The translations under genes were made by a program, and so were the position numbers. The notes under the pieces are model-generated. The model saw only the letters and a program-made list of their open reading frames with translations, was not told the origin of the DNA and did no database searches. A DNA stretch of 64,000 nt from Hyphomicrobiales bacterium (GTDB lineage Bacteria; Pseudomonadota; Alphaproteobacteria; Rhizobiales; JANPGK01). The stretch spans positions 6,720-70,719 of the forward strand of contig JANPGK010000035.1 in assembly GCA_031423895.1 (NCBI GenBank), in the 5' to 3' direction. Of the stretch, positions 20,584 to 25,746 are shown in pieces (within the stretch, counting starts at the first letter, position 1; each line of letters starts with the position of its first letter).

Positions 20584-22119
20584 ATGCATATATTACAGCG
20601 CACCGTATCTCTTCCCGCCCCCGGCCGCCTTCCACAAGTGCAGCCTGTTGCCGTGGTGGATATTGGCTCAAACTCGGTGCGTTTGGTAGTCTATGAGGGG
20701 CTCACCCGCGTGCCTGCGCCATTATTTAACGAAAAAATTCTGGCAGGGCTTGGCCGTAATATGGCCGCTTCGGGCTGTATCGCACCTGAAGCTTATGAGG
20801 TGGCGCTCAAAGCCATCGCCCGCTTTGCAGTGTTGCTCAAACAACTGCAGGTTAATAATGTGCATGTGCTGGCCACGGCTGCCGTGCGCGATGCGAATAA
20901 TGGCTTTGAGTTTATGCAACAGGTTGAGCGATTGATCGGCCATGCCCCACACATTATTAGCGGTGAGCGCGAGGCAGAACTGGCCGCGCTTGGGGTGGTT
21001 TCAGGCTTTATCGACCCACACGGAATTGTGGGCGATTTGGGTGGGGGCAGTGTGGAATTTGTCCCTGTGCGTGGCACGCACATTGATGTTGGGGAATCGC
21101 TTCCCTTGGGCGGCTTGCGATTGGCGGAGCTTTCGGGCGGCGATGTGCGCAAAGCGGCGCGCCTCGTGAAAACTGCAATAAGCCAATCCGAGATTGTCAA
21201 AGGTTTGAAGGGGCAGAATTTTTTTGCGGTGGGCGGCAGCTGGCGCTCATTGGCCAAGCTGCACATGGCGCAAACGCACTACCCGCTGCGGGTGATGCAT
21301 AATTACCGCATTCCTGCCAAAGAGGCGTTGGAATTTTGCCGTATGGTGACCAAAACCGACATCAACGCAATTGTGGGCATCGAGGCGGTTTCAAACGATC
21401 GCCGCCCTTTATTGGCATATGGCGCATTGGTGTTGGAAGAGGTAATTGCGCAAGGCAAGCCAGAATTCATCAAATTTTCAGCGCTGGGTGTGCGCGAAGG
21501 GCTGTTGTTCAGCCTATTGAGCCCGCAAGAGCAAGCGCAAGATCCATTGCTTGCCACCGCAGAAGAATTTGCGCTGCTGCGTTCACGCTCGCCCGCTTAT
21601 GTGCATGAGCTCTGCACGTGGAGCGACGCCTTCATGCAGGCGATTGCCCAACATGAAACGCCAGATGACACGCGCTTGCGCCATGCGGCGTGCTTGTTTT
21701 CCGACCTCAGCTGGCGCGCCCATCCTGATTATCGCGGTGAACAAAGCTTCAACATCATTGCCCACGCGGCCTTTATTGGCGTACGCCACCCTGCACGTAT
21801 ATTTTTAGCGCTGGCCGCATTTCATCGTCATGCAGGGTTGAACGAAGTGCCGCCTACTCCCAATTTGCTCGACATGCTTTCGCCTGAAATGCACAGTCGG
21901 GCGCGGATAATCGGCGCGCTCATTCGTGTGGCGCATGCATTATGCGCCTGCACACCTGGCACAATATTGCGCACGTCCTTTGTTGTGTCTGGCAAAACAT
22001 TGGTGCTGCATATACCTGCCGACTTGGCCGATTTGGCCATTCAACGGCTGAATTCCCGCATGAAACAATTGGCGAAACTGCTCAATTTATCGGCCGATAT
22101 TGTGGTGGCCAAAGCTTAG
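20584..22119 (+). CDS. ppx: Exopolyphosphatase Ppx/GppA
   Basis: VDIGSNSVRLVVY, ATAAVRDA, DLGGGSVE, GVREG. Confidence 0.93.
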   Translation: MHILQRTVSLPAPGRLPQVQPVAVVDIGSNSVRLVVYEGLTRVPAPLFNEKILAGLGRNMAASGCIAPEAYEVALKAIARFAVLLKQLQVNNVHVLATAAVRDANNGFEFMQQVERLIGHAPHIISGEREAELAALGVVSGFIDPHGIVGDLGGGSVEFVPVRGTHIDVGESLPLGGLRLAELSGGDVRKAARLVKTAISQSEIVKGLKGQNFFAVGGSWRSLAKLHMAQTHYPLRVMHNYRIPAKEALEFCRMVTKTDINAIVGIEAVSNDRRPLLAYGALVLEEVIAQGKPEFIKFSALGVREGLLFSLLSPQEQAQDPLLATAEEFALLRSRSPAYVHELCTWSDAFMQAIAQHETPDDTRLRHAACLFSDLSWRAHPDYRGEQSFNIIAHAAFIGVRHPARIFLALAAFHRHAGLNEVPPTPNLLDMLSPEMHSRARIIGALIRVAHALCACTPGTILRTSFVVSGKTLVLHIPADLADLAIQRLNSRMKQLAKLLNLSADIVVAKA

Positions 22120-23717
22120 TGTAATGCAAGCGCGGCCAGCAATGCGCCTAAAATCGCCATCAGCACATGGCTGGTATAATTGCGGTGCGGTGGGGCAATA
22201 ATTTGCACGCTTGCAGGCTTGGCCAAATTCTCTATCATCACATCCAAATGCGGCAAATGGCGCACAAGGCTGGCCACAGCTTTGGCCACATGCTTGGCCT
22301 GCGCCTTGGGGCCCAGCTCGTTTTCAATCCATGTTTTCACAATTGGCTCGGCGGTGGTCCAAATATTAATGTTGGGGTTCAGCCCGCGCGCAAGGCCTTC
22401 GGCCATCACCATAGATTTTTGCAATAGTAACAATTCCATGCGGGTTTCCATGCCAAATAGCGATGTGATTTCGAATAAAAGCGTAATCACCCGCGCCATT
22501 GAAACCTCATTGGCGGGGCGTTCGTGGATGGGTTCCCCCACCGCGCGCAGGGCTTGGGCAAATGCGGCTTTGTCCTGTGTGGCTGGCACATAGCCAGCAT
22601 CAAAATGCACTTGGGCAATGCGTTCATAATCGCGCTTGATGAAGCCCCAGAGGATTTCGGCAAAAAAGCGGCGTTCTTTCTCGCCCAATCGCCCCACAAT
22701 GCCAAAATCGATGGCGACGATGGTGGATTGTACATTTAGGGTGTCATCCTGAGGCATCGCCGAAGGATCTCCCTGAAATGGAGCGCGATCGGCGGGAGAT
22801 CCTTCACTGCGTTCAGGATGACATTTATGAAGCCCTTCAACAAAAATATTCCCCGCGTGCCAATCCGCATGGAAAAAGCCGTCGTTCAGCGCTTGCTTCA
22901 AAAAGCTTTGCAGCAGAATTTCGGACAATTTCACCAGATCATGCCCTGCGGCGTGCAGCGCTGCGGGGTTACGTAAGGTTTGGCCGTCAATCCACTCCAT
23001 TGTCAGCATTGCGCGTGATGTGTAGTCCCACTCCACATGTGGTACACGAAAATGCACCTCATTTTTGGTGGTCTGCGCCATTTCGGCTAAAGCGGAGGCT
23101 TCTAGCCGCAAATCCATCTCGGTGCGCGCCCATGAAGCGAATGTGGCCACAATATCGCGCATTTTCAGGCGGCGCGCCTCAGCGCTCATCGCTTCCATCA
23201 TGCGCGCGCCAAAGGCCATATGCGCCAAATCGGCCTTAAAGCGGCGCTGAATATCAGGCCGCAGCAGTTTCACCGCCACGGTTTTGCCGTTCGATATCAG
23301 CACCGCTTTATGCACTTGCGCGATGGATGCCGCAGCTACAGGCGTTGAGAATTCGCTGAAAATTTCCTCCACCGGTTTGCCCATCTCAGCGAGCACCTGC
23401 GCGCGCGCCACATCCATGGGAAATGGTGGCATTTCATCTTGCAGCATGGCCAAATCGGCGGCCATCGCCACGCCCACCACATCTGCGCGGGTCGCCAAAA
23501 ATTGCCCAAATTTAATGAAGCTTGGCCCCAGCACCGCAAAAGCATGGGCGGCCGAATGAGGCGTGGCTTTGGTTTCCACCATGCGCAATAGCTGCACCAT
23601 GCGCCATTGCAGGGGCGTGCACACATCGCGTGGAACGGCGGCTAAAATGCCACTGCGCAGCAATTTTATACCCGCGGCGATGCCCCAAAGCGTGTGGAAT
23701 ATGGGTTTGAAAATCAC
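22116..23717 (-). CDS. ubiB: UbiB/AarF atypical kinase with in-frame repeat insert
   Basis: LGPSFIKFGQ, AASIAQVH, VAVK, FFHADWHAGN...DFG; downstream of ubiE with GTGA overlap. Confidence 0.93.
   Translation of the reverse strand: MIFKPIFHTLWGIAAGIKLLRSGILAAVPRDVCTPLQWRMVQLLRMVETKATPHSAAHAFAVLGPSFIKFGQFLATRADVVGVAMAADLAMLQDEMPPFPMDVARAQVLAEMGKPVEEIFSEFSTPVAAASIAQVHKAVLISNGKTVAVKLLRPDIQRRFKADLAHMAFGARMMEAMSAEARRLKMRDIVATFASWARTEMDLRLEASALAEMAQTTKNEVHFRVPHVEWDYTSRAMLTMEWIDGQTLRNPAALHAAGHDLVKLSEILLQSFLKQALNDGFFHADWHAGNIFVEGLHKCHPERSEGSPADRAPFQGDPSAMPQDDTLNVQSTIVAIDFGIVGRLGEKERRFFAEILWGFIKRDYERIAQVHFDAGYVPATQDKAAFAQALRAVGEPIHERPANEVSMARVITLLFEITSLFGMETRMELLLLQKSMVMAEGLARGLNPNINIWTTAEPIVKTWIENELGPKAQAKHVAKAVASLVRHLPHLDVMIENLAKPASVQIIAPPHRNYTSHVLMAILGALLAALALH
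22741..22823. repeat. Palindromic element, family A, in frame inside ubiB
   Basis: Near-identical to 17766-17849; encodes [28 protein letters not shown]. Confidence 0.95.
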
Positions 23718-24574
23718 AATTTCCACCCTTGATGCAGCGCCACAATGCCAGCAGAAAAGCGTGTGAACTTTGTGCGTTTGAAGCCCGCCTGCTGCATTTC
23801 CAGCTCCAGCCGTTGCGCGCTAGGGAATTTGCGGATCGATTCCGCCAAATAGCGGTAGGAGTCTGCATCATTGGCTATCCATTGCCCCAATTTTGGCATC
23901 ACATGCAGCGAATAGGCATCGTAAACCTGCTTCACGCCCGGCATTTCAACTGGTGAAAATTCGAGGCACAAAAACTGCCCGCCGGGCTTCAATACACGGT
24001 GAAATTCGGCCAATGCGGTGGTGCGGCGGGGCACATTTCGCAGGCCAAATGCAATGGTGACGCAGTCGAATGTGGCATCGGCAAATGGCAGCGCTTCGGC
24101 GTTGCCGAGGATGATATTGACACACTTACTCCCCTCCCCTTGCGGGAGGGGGTAGGGGGAGGGGTTTTCTTTCTTAGAAGTAAGAATACCCCCCTCAGTC
24201 TCGCTTACGCTCGACAGCTCCCCCGCAAGGGGGGAGCGGGAAGAAAACCGCACCGCCGCCTCGCGCAACATTGCCTCATTTATATCCAGCAATGTGGCGC
24301 TGTAGCGCGTGCCTGCGCTTTGCAGTGCGCGCGCCACAATATCGCCCGTGCCGCCCGCCACATCCAAATGTGCAAATGGCAGGTTTCCACGCGGAATGTG
24401 CATTTTGGTAATCAGGCTTTGCTTCCACACCCTGTGCAGCCGCAGCGAGAGTACGTCATTCATCAGGTCGTATTTGCTGGCCACCTCATCAAACACATGG
24501 TTCACGCGCCCTTGCTTTTGTTCAAGGGGAATGGTTTCAAAGCCAAAGTCGATGGTTTCGGGTGCATTTTTCAT
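23714..24574 (-). CDS. ubiE: UbiE/MenG C-methyltransferase with in-frame repeat insert
   Basis: VASKYDLMND, LDVAGGTGD, IAFGLRNV, YRYLAESIRKFP. Confidence 0.94.
   Translation of the reverse strand: MKNAPETIDFGFETIPLEQKQGRVNHVFDEVASKYDLMNDVLSLRLHRVWKQSLITKMHIPRGNLPFAHLDVAGGTGDIVARALQSAGTRYSATLLDINEAMLREAAVRFSSRSPLAGELSSVSETEGGILTSKKENPSPYPLPQGEGSKCVNIILGNAEALPFADATFDCVTIAFGLRNVPRRTTALAEFHRVLKPGGQFLCLEFSPVEMPGVKQVYDAYSLHVMPKLGQWIANDADSYRYLAESIRKFPSAQRLELEMQQAGFKRTKFTRFSAGIVALHQGWKL
24129..24237. repeat. Palindromic element, family C, in frame inside ubiE
   Basis: CCCCTCCCCTTGCGGGAGGGGG...CCCCCTCAGTC...GACAGCTCCCCCGCAAGGGGGGAGC; matches 24902-25048 and 13978-14088. Confidence 0.95.
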
Positions 24575-24645
24575 GCCGCATTTGTACAATATTCCGCTAT
24601 TGATTGCGAGTCTGGAATCGCACCAATCAACATCAAGGTAAATAT

Positions 24646-25641
24646 ATGCCCGAGCTGCCCGAAGTGGAAACCATTCGCCGCCAAATTGCGCCTGCGCTTA
24701 TTGGCAAAATGATTACGCATGTACGCTATAACCGCCCTAATATTCGCTTTGCGCTACCGCCTGAAATGCCACAATTAGTGGTAGGGCGCGTCATAAATGG
24801 GGTGGAGCGCCGTGGGAAATATCTGCTGATTGGGGTGGACGGCGCTGGCCAAATTTTGCTGCATTTGGGCATGAGCGGGCGGGTGTTGATTGAAGATAAC
24901 GCCCCTCCCCTTTGCTGTGCCCTCCGAAGCCCGTCGGGCGAAGGATGGGCGGGAGGGGGTAGGGGGAGGGGTTTTCTTTCTGATTTAGAAAGTAAGAATA
25001 CCCCCCTCAGTCACGCTGCGCGCGACAGCTCCCCCGCAGGTGGGGAGCCATTCACCGCAGGTGCGTTTTACTATGACACCCAGCGCAGCACTAAGCACGA
25101 CCATGTGATGATGACGCTGAACAATTGCACGTTAATTTATAACGACCCGCGCCGTTTTGGCATGATGGATTTCATTCCGCTGGGGCAAAATACGCCCCAC
25201 CCATTGCTGGCCAATATGGGGCACGAGCCGTGGAGTGACGCCTGCACGCCGCAGTGGCTGTTTAATGTGTCGCGCAATCGCAGCACTTCGTTGAAGGCGC
25301 TGTTGCTCGACCAAACCCATATTGCAGGCATTGGCAATATTTATGCCAGCGAGGCGCTGCATAGTGCGCGGCTCAGCCCATTTGCAGCCGCTAGCATGCT
25401 CACATTTCAACAGGCAGAAGATTTGTTGAGTGCAGTGCGGCTTGCGCTCGAAAAAGGTATTCGCTTAGGCGGCGCCAGCATCCGCGATTTTTCGCAGGCC
25501 GATGGCGAGAAGGGCGCCATGCAGGATGAATTTTTGGTGTACGGCCGCGATGGTCAGCCATGCCACAGCTGCGGCGCACCCATCATAAAAGCCACGCAAA
25601 ATGGGCGGAGTACGTTTTGGTGTGGGGGCTGTCAGGTTTAG
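24646..25641 (+). CDS. mutM: Formamidopyrimidine-DNA glycosylase MutM/Fpg with in-frame repeat insert
   Basis: MPELPEVE start, HLGMSG, DPRRFG, AGIGNIYASE, C-terminal zinc finger. Confidence 0.96.
   Translation: MPELPEVETIRRQIAPALIGKMITHVRYNRPNIRFALPPEMPQLVVGRVINGVERRGKYLLIGVDGAGQILLHLGMSGRVLIEDNAPPLCCALRSPSGEGWAGGGRGRGFLSDLESKNTPLSHAARDSSPAGGEPFTAGAFYYDTQRSTKHDHVMMTLNNCTLIYNDPRRFGMMDFIPLGQNTPHPLLANMGHEPWSDACTPQWLFNVSRNRSTSLKALLLDQTHIAGIGNIYASEALHSARLSPFAAASMLTFQQAEDLLSAVRLALEKGIRLGGASIRDFSQADGEKGAMQDEFLVYGRDGQPCHSCGAPIIKATQNGRSTFWCGGCQV
24902..25048. repeat. Palindromic element, family C, in frame inside mutM, with nested ~35-bp hairpin
   Basis: Same element as in ubiE plus extra TGTGCCCTCCGAAGCCCGTCGGGCGAAGGATGGGC in the first loop. 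Confidence 0.93.
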
Positions 25642-25642
25642 G

Positions 25643-25726
25643 GTGTCATCCTGAGGTGCAACCGAAGGATCGCCATAAAATAAGCGCAATTGGCGGGAGA
25701 TTCTTCGCCTATGGCTCAGAATGACA
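25643..25726. repeat. Palindromic element, family A (diverged), directly after mutM stop
   Basis: GTGTCATCCTGAGG...GAAGGATC...GATTCTTCG...CTCAGAATGACA. Confidence 0.88.
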
Positions 25727-25746
25727 ACTGTATAGTTTTGATAATG

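What the first reader, a model, noticed from the sequence alone, without database searches (positions are those of the whole stretch)
24129..25048. Same element read in opposite directions in divergent neighbours ubiE and mutM
Two family C copies about 670 bp apart have the same + strand orientation, but ubiE is on - and mutM on +. One element therefore gives two unrelated peptides: SPLAGELSSVSETEGG...PLPQGEGS (~36 aa) and PPL...GGGRGRGF...DSSPAGGE (~49 aa). The element is open on both strands, so the peptide sequence is probably not what is selected. Their closeness hints at local hopping. As direct repeats flanking the shared promoter, they could also delete it by recombination.
Basis: seen in the sequence. 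Interest (0 to 1): 0.75.

Follow-up and report, generated by a model that had tools for sequence, protein, structure and literature searches.

The report
Hairpin repeat translated inside ubiE and mutM
Two copies of a small hairpin-forming DNA repeat sit in frame inside the back-to-back genes ubiE and mutM and are read from opposite strands as two unrelated floppy loops; this is a real but already known kind of selfish DNA, and its full-length form carries a small nuclease gene.

Summary
Two homologous copies of a ~110-150-nt repeat (nhmmer E 7.5e-36 and 1.7e-27) lie 664 bp apart, both in + orientation. One is in ubiE (-), the other in mutM (+). Both are read through without stops and give peptides with no detectable similarity.

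The family has 49 strong copies in this 1.9-Mb genome. Eleven of them are internal to genes, and five weaker relatives are too. Both orientations are used: 11 antisense, 5 sense. The inserts are absent from UbiE and MutM of every relative searched and fall in low-confidence surface loops.

"Local hopping" is not supported. The two copies belong to different subfamilies, and their closeness fits chance. A deletion between them is conceivable, but nothing shows it.

The element is two inverted triplex-motif (TMECO-like) modules around an AT-rich hairpin. All 3 DUF559 endonuclease genes of the genome sit inside the same shell. So do DUF559 genes in 29 of 29 sampled alphaproteobacteria and 72 of 80 loci from many phyla.

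This is an RPE-like in-frame repeat insertion. The scan had already found the same family in this genome (rsmB).

The parts
23714..24574 (-). ubiE (ubiquinone/menaquinone C-methyltransferase). It is single-copy and intact, and is interrupted in frame by copy 1.
   Evidence: ORF. Pfam PF01209 at 1.8e-77, matched in two stretches on either side of the insert. Only one UbiE match in G000 apart from repeat-derived hits. SAM motif residues are invariant in the alignment of 17.
24129..24237 (+). Family C copy 1 (canonical subfamily), read antisense as about 36-38 residues of UbiE (about residues 112-149). Weak terminal inverted-repeat flanks reach about 24122-24249.
   Evidence: nhmmer score 122.6, E 7.5e-36. 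DNA fold z -3.3 / -3.5 on the two strands. Absent from UbiE of 15 of 15 relatives. pLDDT blocks 69/60/40/63 across residues 111-150, against 84-98 elsewhere.
24129..24164 (+). Left triplex-motif module of copy 1: C-block, TTGC loop, G-block, TA, second G-block.
   Evidence: Read. It has the same three-block architecture as TMECO but does not fit the strict consensus. 9 of 9 triads are compatible.
24165..24188 (+). AT-rich central hairpin of copy 1. It is a short variant, and this keeps the antisense frame open through both modules.
   Evidence: The same short centre is seen in the leuS, anmK, PALP-CBS and ORF877 copies.
24189..24237 (+). Right module of copy 1: C-block, small spacer hairpin, then terminal hairpin GCTCCCCC/GCAA/GGGGGGAGC (an inverted triplex-type module).
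24575..24645 (.). Short divergent ubiE-mutM intergenic region, presumed to hold the promoters.
   Evidence: The divergent arrangement is kept in many same-order relatives. The promoter scan gave no more than its shuffles.
24646..25641 (+). mutM / fpg (formamidopyrimidine-DNA glycosylase). It is single-copy and intact, and is interrupted in frame by copy 2.
   Evidence: Pfam PF01149, PF06831 and PF06827. PDB Fpg 6tc6 at 2.3e-53, matched in two stretches. The catalytic N-terminus PELPEVE and the four zinc-finger Cys are invariant in the alignment of 16.
24902..25048 (+). Family C copy 2 (subfamily with a nested hairpin), read in sense as about 49 residues of MutM (about residues 86-135).
   Evidence: nhmmer score 95.6, E 1.7e-27 for the part after the nested insert. 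89% identity to copy 1 over 101 nt. The insert lies between Fpg residues 81 and 91 of 6tc6. Residues 88-146 have pLDDT < 50.
24913..24948 (+). Nested 36-nt hairpin inside the left hairpin loop of copy 2.
   Evidence: Gap in the pairwise alignment. It folds as an extension of the left hairpin. It is shared with the copies at C4:130306, C28/C29, C2:113651 and C35:80130.

Best explanation
These are two independent, in-frame insertions of one multi-copy palindromic repeat family into permissive surface loops of two housekeeping enzymes.

The element is built from two inverted triplex-motif modules (C-block, loop, G-block, G-block) around an AT-rich hairpin. It is the gene-less (MITE-like) form of a cassette in which the same two arms enclose a DUF559 (Vsr-like PD-(D/E)XK) endonuclease gene.

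Copies land throughout the genome. In genes, only those survive that fall in tolerant loops and in a frame without stops. Several frames on both strands are often open in this G/C-run-rich sequence. The same DNA is therefore translated in sense in mutM and antisense in ubiE, into unrelated Pro/Gly-rich, probably disordered loops.

That the two copies are neighbours, in the same orientation, in divergent genes is coincidence given about 50 copies in 1.9 Mb.

Shown: homology, copy number, in-frame read-through, absence from relatives, loop location, the DUF559-bearing full-length forms, and the cross-phylum DUF559/triplex-module association.

Inferred: that insertion (not loss in all relatives) is the polarity, that the proteins stay active, and that the DUF559 nuclease is what mobilises the element. 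The confidence given is for the insertion reading; for the DUF559 mobility step alone I put about 0.4.
For: **Homology and abundance**
- 134 nhmmer hits collapse to 96 loci, of which 49 score >= 75.

**In-gene copies confirmed by Pfam on both sides or across the insert**
- UbiE, LeuRS, RsmB, AnmK, a metallophosphoesterase, NlpC/P60, MutM, PALP-CBS, TatB and GluRS.
- An 877-aa ORF, though this one has no Pfam hit.
- Weaker relatives in AddA, GlyS, RlmJ and NadE (twice).
- Orientation: 11 antisense, 5 sense.

**Absence from relatives**
- MutM matched in two pieces that skip residues ~85-130 in 35 of 39 relatives. Three others carry their own unrelated inserts in the same loop.
- UbiE matched in two pieces in 15 of 15 relatives.
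- The best 80 metagenome loci are at most 45% identical and about 30 or more residues shorter.

**Loop location**
- PDB alignments place the inserts between Fpg residues 81 and 91, and between Coq5 residues 110 and 123.
- In the AlphaFold models the inserts are low-confidence and the rest is confident: pTM 0.87 and 0.74.

**Structure rather than peptide**
- DNA folds have z -3.0 to -3.5.
- Three co-varying variants of C-block, G-block and G-block are triad-compatible at 9 of 9 positions in 34 of 36 parsed copies.
- The two peptides are unrelated.

**Independence of the two copies**
-.

**Full-length form**
- 3 of 3 DUF559 genes in G000 lie between a left and a right module.
- The arms of the C37 element match the family consensus at 49/51 and 47/54 positions, and the nearest repeat copies at 46/47 and 58/61.
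- That DUF559 protein matches PDB 3hrl at 1e-20 and keeps the D...ExD motif region.

**Wider association**
- 29 of 29 DUF559 loci from other alphaproteobacterial genomes have a three-block module within 200 nt, and 20 of 29 have one on both sides. Density is 5.4 per kb near the gene against 0.09 per kb far from it.
- 72 of 80 named-genome loci across many phyla do too: 4.8 against 0.16 per kb.
- E. coli K-12 ycjD (DUF559) has TMECO no. 9 about 170 nt downstream.
Against: - No close relative exists in any collection searched: same order only, at most 45% identity. So no empty site, no target-site duplication and no dating of the insertions.
- No RNA or protein data, so translation through the inserts and enzyme activity are inferred.
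- The openness of frames is only about 2 SD above mononucleotide shuffles.
- The three co-varying variants may be just three inherited subfamilies, that is, few independent events.
- Nothing shows that DUF559 cuts or moves these elements. The association could reflect capture, or a regulatory or terminator role of the modules.
- My module detector missed modules visible by eye at 2 of the 3 own loci, so its counts are lower bounds and its definition is my own.
- Only 11 of 49 strong copies are clearly internal to genes. Seven more sit at N-termini, where the true start is uncertain.
Confidence: 0.88

Rival explanations
1. Local hopping: one of the two copies was copied from the other, either by short-range transposition or by duplication across the intergenic region.
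For: They are 664 bp apart, in the same orientation, and share exact runs of 33 and 23 nt. Pairs within 2.5 kb are somewhat enriched: 6 against 3.0 expected, P = 0.065.
Against: - The two are 82-89% identical, while the ubiE copy is 92-95% identical to copies on five other contigs. The mutM copy ranks 42nd of 48 for it.
- The mutM copy carries the nested 36-nt hairpin. Its best matches are C4:130313-130459 (90.6% over 149 nt) and the glyS copy 48 kb away (98.7% over 78 nt, and 100% over 51 nt).
- Pairs within 1 kb: 2 against 1.2 expected, P = 0.34.
Confidence: 0.05
2. The inserts are selected protein modules: each peptide adds a function to its enzyme, for example a binding or localisation loop.
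For: The same antisense peptide (…TEGGIL…ENPSPYPLPQGEG) recurs in UbiE, LeuRS, RsmB and AnmK. The same sense peptide recurs in MutM and a metallophosphoesterase. The host genes are intact.
Against: - The recurrence follows from shared DNA.
- The two orientations give unrelated peptides in unrelated enzymes.
- The inserts are predicted as low-confidence coil.
- 31 or more of the 49 strong copies are not inside supported genes.
- Variation between copies tracks the pairing and triad rules of the DNA.
Confidence: 0.05
3. Assembly artefact: the repeats were spliced into ubiE and mutM by mis-assembly of a metagenome bin.
For: The genome is a 39-contig bin. Logan contigs of the two holder runs break at the repeats.
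Against: - Both reading frames and both halves of each Pfam domain continue across the repeats. The same holds in at least 14 other genes.
- A 718-nt contig of run X1 runs from inside copy 1 to inside copy 2 with no difference. It is probably from the same sample, so it is not independent.
- The elements are shorter than typical reads.
Confidence: 0.02
4. On the mobility step only: DUF559 is not the mobilising enzyme. The modules spread by another route (replication slippage, recombination, or an unseen transposase). DUF559 genes are merely captured between them or use them as regulatory or terminator shells.
For: - Holder et al. found no mobility genes near E. coli TMECOs (passages).
- Only 1 of 23 K-12 TMECOs is next to ycjD.
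- 2 of the 8 genomes with near-identical left modules showed no DUF559 at E <= 1e-10.
- No target-site duplication or empty site has been seen.
Against: - 3 of 3, 29 of 29 and 72 of 80 DUF559 loci carry modules, at a density 30-60 times that of flanks in the same loci.
- The repeat looks like an internal-deletion derivative of the C37 cassette.
- No RAYT/Y1 transposase was found in G000, while the control found it in 6 of 14 reference genomes.
- The Vsr/DUF559 clade includes a homing endonuclease (PMC3424549, passage).
Confidence: 0.35

Closest known systems
Rickettsia palindromic elements (RPE; Ogata et al. 2000, 2002). I saw these only through passages of PMC10969869 and PMC1779305. The original papers were not read.
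   Same: An interspersed 100-150-bp palindromic repeat, abundant both between genes and inside protein-coding genes of an alphaproteobacterium. It is inserted in frame in unrelated housekeeping genes and is compatible with the host protein's fold.
   Different: - Family C is G/C-run-rich and built from triplex-type modules.
- It is read in both orientations and several frames, giving unrelated peptides. The review says each RPE encodes one conserved peptide.
- The host is an unsampled bacterium of 1.9 Mb and 50% GC, found in freshwater-sediment metagenome runs, not Rickettsia.
- A full-length form with a DUF559 gene exists.
- Sequence homology to RPE families was not tested.
TMECO / BoxC / PIT intrastrand triplex motif (Holder et al. 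2015, PMC4666352). I read the abstract, passages, and section 12 with Table 1.
   Same: A C-block of about 9 nt, a 3-6-nt loop, a complementary G-block, a short loop, and a second G-block that mirrors the first. Copies are often in inverted pairs. The motif is multi-copy and widespread.
   Different: - The strict consensus has 0 matches in G000. The canonical family C block is CCCCTCCCC, not CCCTCNCCC, and many copies have a hairpin in loop 2.
[quoted passage not shown]
- Here the inverted pair is a defined ~115-nt unit, sits in frame in genes, and encloses DUF559 genes.
Bacterial MITEs (review PMC10969869, passages), including intragenic ERIC and Correia-type elements.
   Same: Short, non-coding, with terminal inverted repeats, many copies, apparent internal-deletion derivatives of a longer gene-bearing element, and occasional in-frame fusions with host ORFs.
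   Different: The gene in the long form is a Vsr-like PD-(D/E)XK endonuclease (DUF559), not a DDE or Y1 transposase. No target-site duplication could be determined.
REP/BIME elements with RAYT transposases (recalled; also named in the earlier scan notes).
   Same: Palindromic, mosaic, modular repeats whose modules combine and nest.
   Different: No Y1_Tnp/RAYT match in G000. REPs are extragenic, whereas these are also intragenic.

Membership tests
RPE-like in-frame palindromic repeat (the kind, not the Rickettsia families) | Interspersed multi-copy repeat of about 100-150 bp | tested here: met
   49 strong copies and 96 loci in all at E < 1e-3 in 1.9 Mb.
RPE-like in-frame palindromic repeat (the kind, not the Rickettsia families) | Palindromic, able to form hairpins | tested here: met
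   DNA folds of both copies on both strands have z -3.0 to -3.5, and 0-1 of 200 shuffles fold as well.
RPE-like in-frame palindromic repeat (the kind, not the Rickettsia families) | Inserted in frame in intact protein-coding genes, and absent from orthologues | tested here: met
RPE-like in-frame palindromic repeat (the kind, not the Rickettsia families) | Insert lies in a surface loop compatible with the fold | tested here: met
   PDB alignments. AlphaFold models show low pLDDT only in the inserts, plus the known flexible Fpg loop. These are predictions, not structures.
Rickettsia RPE-1 to RPE-10 (membership proper) | Sequence homology to an RPE family profile | not tested
   No RPE sequences or profiles were at hand. 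Rfam holds no matching family. That the composition differs (G/C runs here) is a recalled contrast.
Rickettsia RPE-1 to RPE-10 (membership proper) | One conserved encoded peptide per family | tested here: not met
   Both orientations and several frames are used. The two peptides are unrelated. The RPE property is taken from a passage of PMC10969869.
TMECO / BoxC / PIT triplex motif | Consensus CCCTCNCCC N3-6 GGGNGAGGG N3 GGGNGAGGG | tested here: not met
   0 strict matches in G000, and neither focal copy matches. A relaxed three-block pattern gives 51 matches, and the TMECO blocks with a 3-20-nt second loop give 79.
TMECO / BoxC / PIT triplex motif | Three blocks able to form G·G-C, A·A-T and T·A-T triads | tested here: met
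   9 of 9 positions are compatible in 34 of 36 parsed left modules, across three co-varying variants. Triplex formation itself is not testable here.
TMECO / BoxC / PIT triplex motif | Intergenic location, no linked mobility gene (as described for E. coli) | tested here: not met
   In-gene copies. DUF559 genes lie inside the shell.
MITE | Terminal inverted repeats | tested here: met
   The left and right terminal hairpins and the ACTTC…GAAGT-type flanks are inverted copies.
MITE | Target-site duplication | not testable with these tools
   No empty site: no close relative in the genomes or metagenomes searched.
MITE | Derived from a longer element that encodes its mobility enzyme | tested here: inconclusive
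   A longer form with the same arms and a DUF559 gene exists. That DUF559 is the mobility enzyme is not shown.
REP/BIME with RAYT | A Y1 (RAYT) transposase in the genome | tested here: not met
   PF01797: 0 matches in G000 (100% complete by markers). The control found it in 6 of 14 reference genomes.

The most novel reading that the evidence does not exclude
The triplex-motif repeats of bacteria (TMECO/BoxC/PIT and composites such as family C) are the gene-less offspring of a mobile cassette. In that cassette two inverted triplex modules enclose a DUF559 (Vsr-like) endonuclease, and the nuclease mobilises them. This would give the orphan DUF559 family a function. It would give the unexplained TMECO repeats a mobility mechanism. 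It would also explain how such DNA comes to be written, in either orientation, into essential enzymes.
Probability: 0.35. Interest if true: 0.75.

Novelty: new variant of a known kind. Interest (0 to 1): 0.4.

Why it matters
As a case of selfish palindromic DNA tolerated inside housekeeping genes, the pair is a clean textbook illustration: one DNA element, two strands, two unrelated protein loops. It adds no new principle beyond the Rickettsia elements, and the scan had already met this family in the same genome.

What could matter more is the anatomy behind it.
- The repeat is an inverted pair of triplex-type modules.
- Its full-length form, here and across many phyla, carries a DUF559 nuclease gene.
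- Holder et al. (2015) reported finding no mobility function near such motifs.
- My searches of the open-access library found no paper that links DUF559 or YcjD with BoxC or intrastrand triplex repeats.

If the nuclease moves these modules, a widespread repeat class and a widespread orphan protein family would explain each other. That is directly testable in E. coli K-12 with ycjD.

Tried and rejected
- **Reads for a deletion between the copies.** Only two DNA holders from one study were listed, both kept as contigs, and no RNA holder was listed. Laying them gave one joint, 24171->24996, with a 21-nt side. That is what another family copy would give. Contigs cannot show rare variants, so there is no verdict.
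- **Dating the insertions or finding an empty site.** No genome of the same family is among the relatives. The best metagenome relatives of UbiE are 45% identical.
- **Full-length family C outside this genome.** It was not found in the 150 other alphaproteobacterial genomes sampled. Only the ~35-nt left module matched, in 8 of them.
- **Rfam.** Two chance-level hits far below gathering scores.
- **Promoter scan of the divergent region.** No more than its shuffles.
- **An empty site for the E. coli ycjD cassette.** 3346 of 5426 genomes hold at least 80% of the fabI-ycjD-sapF stretch. The O157:H7 example carries a different gene set after fabI rather than a clean empty site. I dropped this line.
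- **Openness of frames as a special property.** It is only about 2 SD above shuffles.
- **Original RPE papers.** Ogata 2000 and 2002 were not in the library. The RPE properties come from review passages.
- **Supplements.** The supplements of Holder et al. (lists of motif sites) were not opened and may bear on gene context.
Full report
**Observation**

The window holds ubiE on the minus strand (ORF 23714..24589, probable start ATG at 24574). It holds mutM on the plus strand (ORF from 24604, canonical start 24646 giving MPELPEVET, stop at 25641). The two genes are divergent, with about 70 bp between their starts.

Inside each gene lies a copy of one repeat, at 24129-24237 and at 24902-25048. The copies align at 89% over 101 nt. 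Against a profile built from 36 other copies they score E 7.5e-36 and 1.7e-27, both in the + orientation of the model. Neither gene has a stop in its copy.

BLASTP finds no alignment between them even at E <= 100. The mutM copy also carries a nested 36-nt hairpin (24913-24948) in the loop of its left hairpin.

**The family**

nhmmer finds 134 hits, which collapse to 96 loci. Of these, 49 score 75 bits or more and align end to end. The element is modular:
- A left module: a C-block, a 4-5-nt loop, the complementary G-block, two bases, and a second G-block.
- An AT-rich central hairpin.
- A right module that is the inverted counterpart, with a small hairpin as spacer.

Single-strand DNA folds of both focal copies on both strands give z -3.0 to -3.5.

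The left module exists in three variants. In these the C-block, the first G-block and the second G-block change together. The second G-block mirrors the first by G·G-C, A·A-T and T·A-T rules at 9 of 9 positions in 34 of the 36 copies my pattern could parse, out of 49. This is the architecture of the TMECO/BoxC intrastrand triplex motif of Holder et al. 2015 (PMC4666352; abstract, passages and Table 1 read).

The strict TMECO consensus has no match in this genome. A relaxed three-block pattern has 51 matches, and TMECO blocks with an enlarged second loop have 79. The family works like TMECO but is not a member by the published consensus.

**Frames**

I anchored the frames on the right module and examined 48 of the 49 copies (one lacked the anchor). 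The number of copies open in each frame:

| Frame | F0 | F1 | F2 | R0 | R1 | R2 |
|---|---|---|---|---|---|---|
| Open copies | 19 | 16 | 0 | 16 | 31 | 0 |

Most copies have one or two open frames. In total 83 of 294 frames are open, against 69.3 +/- 7.3 in mononucleotide shuffles. The ubiE copy is open in one frame on each strand. The mutM copy is open only in the frame used. Openness is therefore mostly what G/C-run-rich sequence gives, with a modest excess.

**Gene context**

I translated 40 stop-free spans that contain a copy and scanned them against Pfam. Copies clearly internal to genes:

| Group | Host genes |
|---|---|
| The 49 strong copies (11 internal) | UbiE, LeuRS, RsmB, AnmK, a metallophosphoesterase, NlpC/P60, MutM, a PALP-CBS enzyme, TatB, GluRS, and an 877-residue ORF without a Pfam hit |
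| Weaker-scoring relatives (5 internal) | AddA, GlyS, RlmJ, and NadE (two copies) |

Seven further strong copies sit in the first 3-80 residues of the open span of LivM, FlgA, RecN and others. There the true start is uncertain. The rest are between genes, at contig ends, or in short ORFs without family matches.

Among the 16 internal copies, 11 are read antisense to the model and 5 in sense. The antisense peptide (…TEGGIL…ENPSPYPLPQGEG) recurs in UbiE, LeuRS, RsmB and AnmK. The sense peptide of MutM recurs in the metallophosphoesterase. Reading the element in both directions is thus a property of the family, not a peculiarity of this pair.

**Are they insertions, and are they tolerated?**

The genome has no relative of the same family among the species representatives; the nearest are of the same order.
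- MutM: in 35 of 39 relatives with a match, it aligned in two pieces that leave out residues ~85-130. One relative gave only the C-terminal piece. Three aligned through with their own, unrelated insertions in the same loop.
- UbiE: it aligned in two pieces in 15 of 15 relatives.
- Metagenome loci: the best 80 are at most 45% identical and about 30 or more residues shorter.
- Copy number: both genes are single-copy in the genome.
- Conserved residues: both genes keep the residues that are invariant in the alignments. These include the PELPEVE N-terminus and four zinc-finger cysteines of Fpg, and the SAM motif of UbiE.
- Site of the MutM insert: against solved structures it lies between Fpg residues 81 and 91 (6tc6).
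- Site of the UbiE insert: it lies between Coq5 residues 110 and 123 (4obw), before the strand that carries the GNAE motif.
- AlphaFold models built on these alignments:

| Protein | pTM | Mean pLDDT | Where confidence is low |
|---|---|---|---|
| UbiE | 0.87 | 86.4 | Blocks 69/60/40/63 over residues 111-150; 84-98 elsewhere |
| MutM | 0.74 | 77.8 | Residues 88-146 below 50; otherwise only 279-289 |

From memory, MutM residues 279-289 correspond to the flexible lesion-capping loop of Fpg.

Polarity (insertion rather than loss) and retained activity are inferences.

*Local hopping.*
- The ubiE copy is 92-95% identical to copies on other contigs. The mutM copy ranks 42nd of 48 for it.
- The mutM copy belongs to the subfamily with the nested hairpin. 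Its best matches are at C4:130313-130459 and in glyS, 48 kb away.
- With 49 copies placed at random on the contigs, 1.2 neighbouring pairs within 1 kb are expected and 2 are seen (P = 0.34). Within 2.5 kb, 6 are seen against 3.0 expected (P = 0.065).
- Closeness needs no special explanation.

*Deletion.*
- The copies share exact runs of 33, 23 and 16 nt. By recalled knowledge of minimal homology for RecA-dependent exchange, this is enough for rare recombination.
- The product would lack the first ~110 codons of ubiE, the first ~85 codons of mutM, and everything between. It should be strongly counter-selected.
- Only contigs of two DNA runs from one study could be laid. A 718-nt contig runs unchanged from inside copy 1 to inside copy 2. 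The single joint has a 21-nt side, as another family copy would give.

**How it probably spreads**

I tested this.

*In this genome.*
- The genome has three DUF559 matches, and all three lie between a left and a right module.
- At C37, the arms match the family consensus at 49/51 and 47/54 positions, and the nearest repeat copies at 46/47 and 58/61.
- The gene takes the place of the AT-rich centre, so the repeat looks like an internal-deletion derivative of this cassette.
- The protein matches the solved DUF559 protein 3hrl at 1e-20.
- No Y1/RAYT transposase was found in the genome.

*In other genomes.*

| Sample of DUF559 loci | Three-block module within 200 nt | Modules on both sides | Density near the gene | Density in far flanks |
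|---|---|---|---|---|
| 150 other alphaproteobacterial genomes, of which 38 have DUF559; best locus examined for 29 | 29 of 29 | 20 of 29 | 5.4 per kb | 0.09 per kb |
| 80 named-genome loci found with the C37 protein | 72 of 80 | 37 of 69 with both flanks | 4.8 per kb | 0.16 per kb |

The 80 named-genome loci include 12 of 14 outside the Proteobacteria, from Elusimicrobiota, Omnitrophota, candidate phyla radiation and others.

In E. coli K-12, ycjD (DUF559) has TMECO no. 9 about 170 nt downstream, and a half-module at its 3' end.

*What is in print.* Holder et al. state that they never found mobility functions near TMECOs (passage). The Vsr/DUF559 clade of PD-(D/E)XK nucleases includes a group I intron homing endonuclease (PMC3424549, passage). 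In the open-access library:
- 18 papers hold DUF559 with 'repeat', and none of the 15 listed links them.
- 3 hold DUF559 with 'palindrom', none relevant.
- None holds DUF559 or YcjD together with BoxC or intrastrand triplex.

The association is solid. That the nuclease moves the element is inference. The main rival is that DUF559 genes are captured by, or regulated through, such modules.

**Comparison and verdict**

The closest known kind is the Rickettsia palindromic element. It too is an abundant 100-150-bp palindromic repeat, inserted in frame in unrelated housekeeping genes and compatible with the fold (passages of PMC10969869 and PMC1779305; the original papers were not available). Family C differs in four ways:
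- its triplex-type modules;
- being read in both orientations into unrelated peptides, whereas the review describes one conserved peptide per RPE;
- its host;
- having a nuclease-bearing long form.

The full composite was not found in 150 other alphaproteobacterial genomes. Only the left module was found, in 8 of them, and 6 of those 8 have DUF559.

The finding is real. Its interpretation is right on the main point and wrong on hopping. As a phenomenon it is a new variant of a known kind, and the scan had already described the same family in rsmB of this genome. The DUF559 link is the part worth following up.

Noticed in passing
window 22735-22823 (inside ubiB, ORF 22116..23726 -) and 25636-25740 (just after the mutM stop): A different palindromic repeat family sits in frame in ubiB, read as …[28 protein letters not shown]…. 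It lies between the HxDxHxGN catalytic loop and the DFG motif of the ABC1 kinase-like domain. The domain spans 280 residues against 243 profile positions. A second copy follows the mutM stop, and BLAST gives 35 hits in the genome. Three consecutive genes (ubiB, ubiE, mutM) therefore each carry a translated repeat.
   Followed up: partly
window 24913-24948; also G000 C8:81640-81815 and C5:130642-130800: A ~36-nt hairpin is nested in the loop of the left terminal hairpin of the mutM copy. Its reverse complement is nested in the loop of the right terminal hairpin of two other copies. The hairpin loops thus seem to be preferred landing sites for a still smaller module.
   Followed up: partly
MutM residues ~83-147; relatives' loci L042, L043/L062, L045: The same Fpg loop carries unrelated insertions of about 30-60 residues in 3 of the 15 distinct relatives aligned. 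It is a recurrent insertion-tolerant site.
   Followed up: no
L056 (E. coli K-12 NC_000913.3 1349800-1351900), positions 1406-1440 and 1590-1662: Downstream of ycjD (DUF559) lie TMECO no. 9, a C-block/G-block hairpin overlapping the ycjD 3' end, and an apparent duplicate of the last ~40 nt of ycjD. The stretch is polymorphic: 3346 of 5426 complete E. coli genomes hold at least 80% of it. An O157:H7 strain has other genes after fabI.
   Followed up: partly
G000 C5:134817-134938 and C5:135477-135596 (outside the window): Two weaker-scoring relatives of the family lie 540 bp apart, in the same orientation, in one 614-residue NAD synthetase ORF. Both are read in sense. This is a second case of direct repeats inside coding sequence.
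   Followed up: no
whole genome G000: No genome of the same family or genus is among about 200,000 species representatives (nearest: same order). The best metagenome relatives of UbiE are 45% identical. The two runs that hold the stretch are freshwater-sediment metagenomes from one study. This is an unsampled alphaproteobacterial lineage that is unusually rich in translated repeats.
   Followed up: no
loci L067-L095 and L189-L268: Some DUF559 matches lie in open frames of 350-620 residues (for example G053, two loci of 612 and 623 residues). DUF559 may also occur fused to larger proteins. These were not examined.
   Followed up: no
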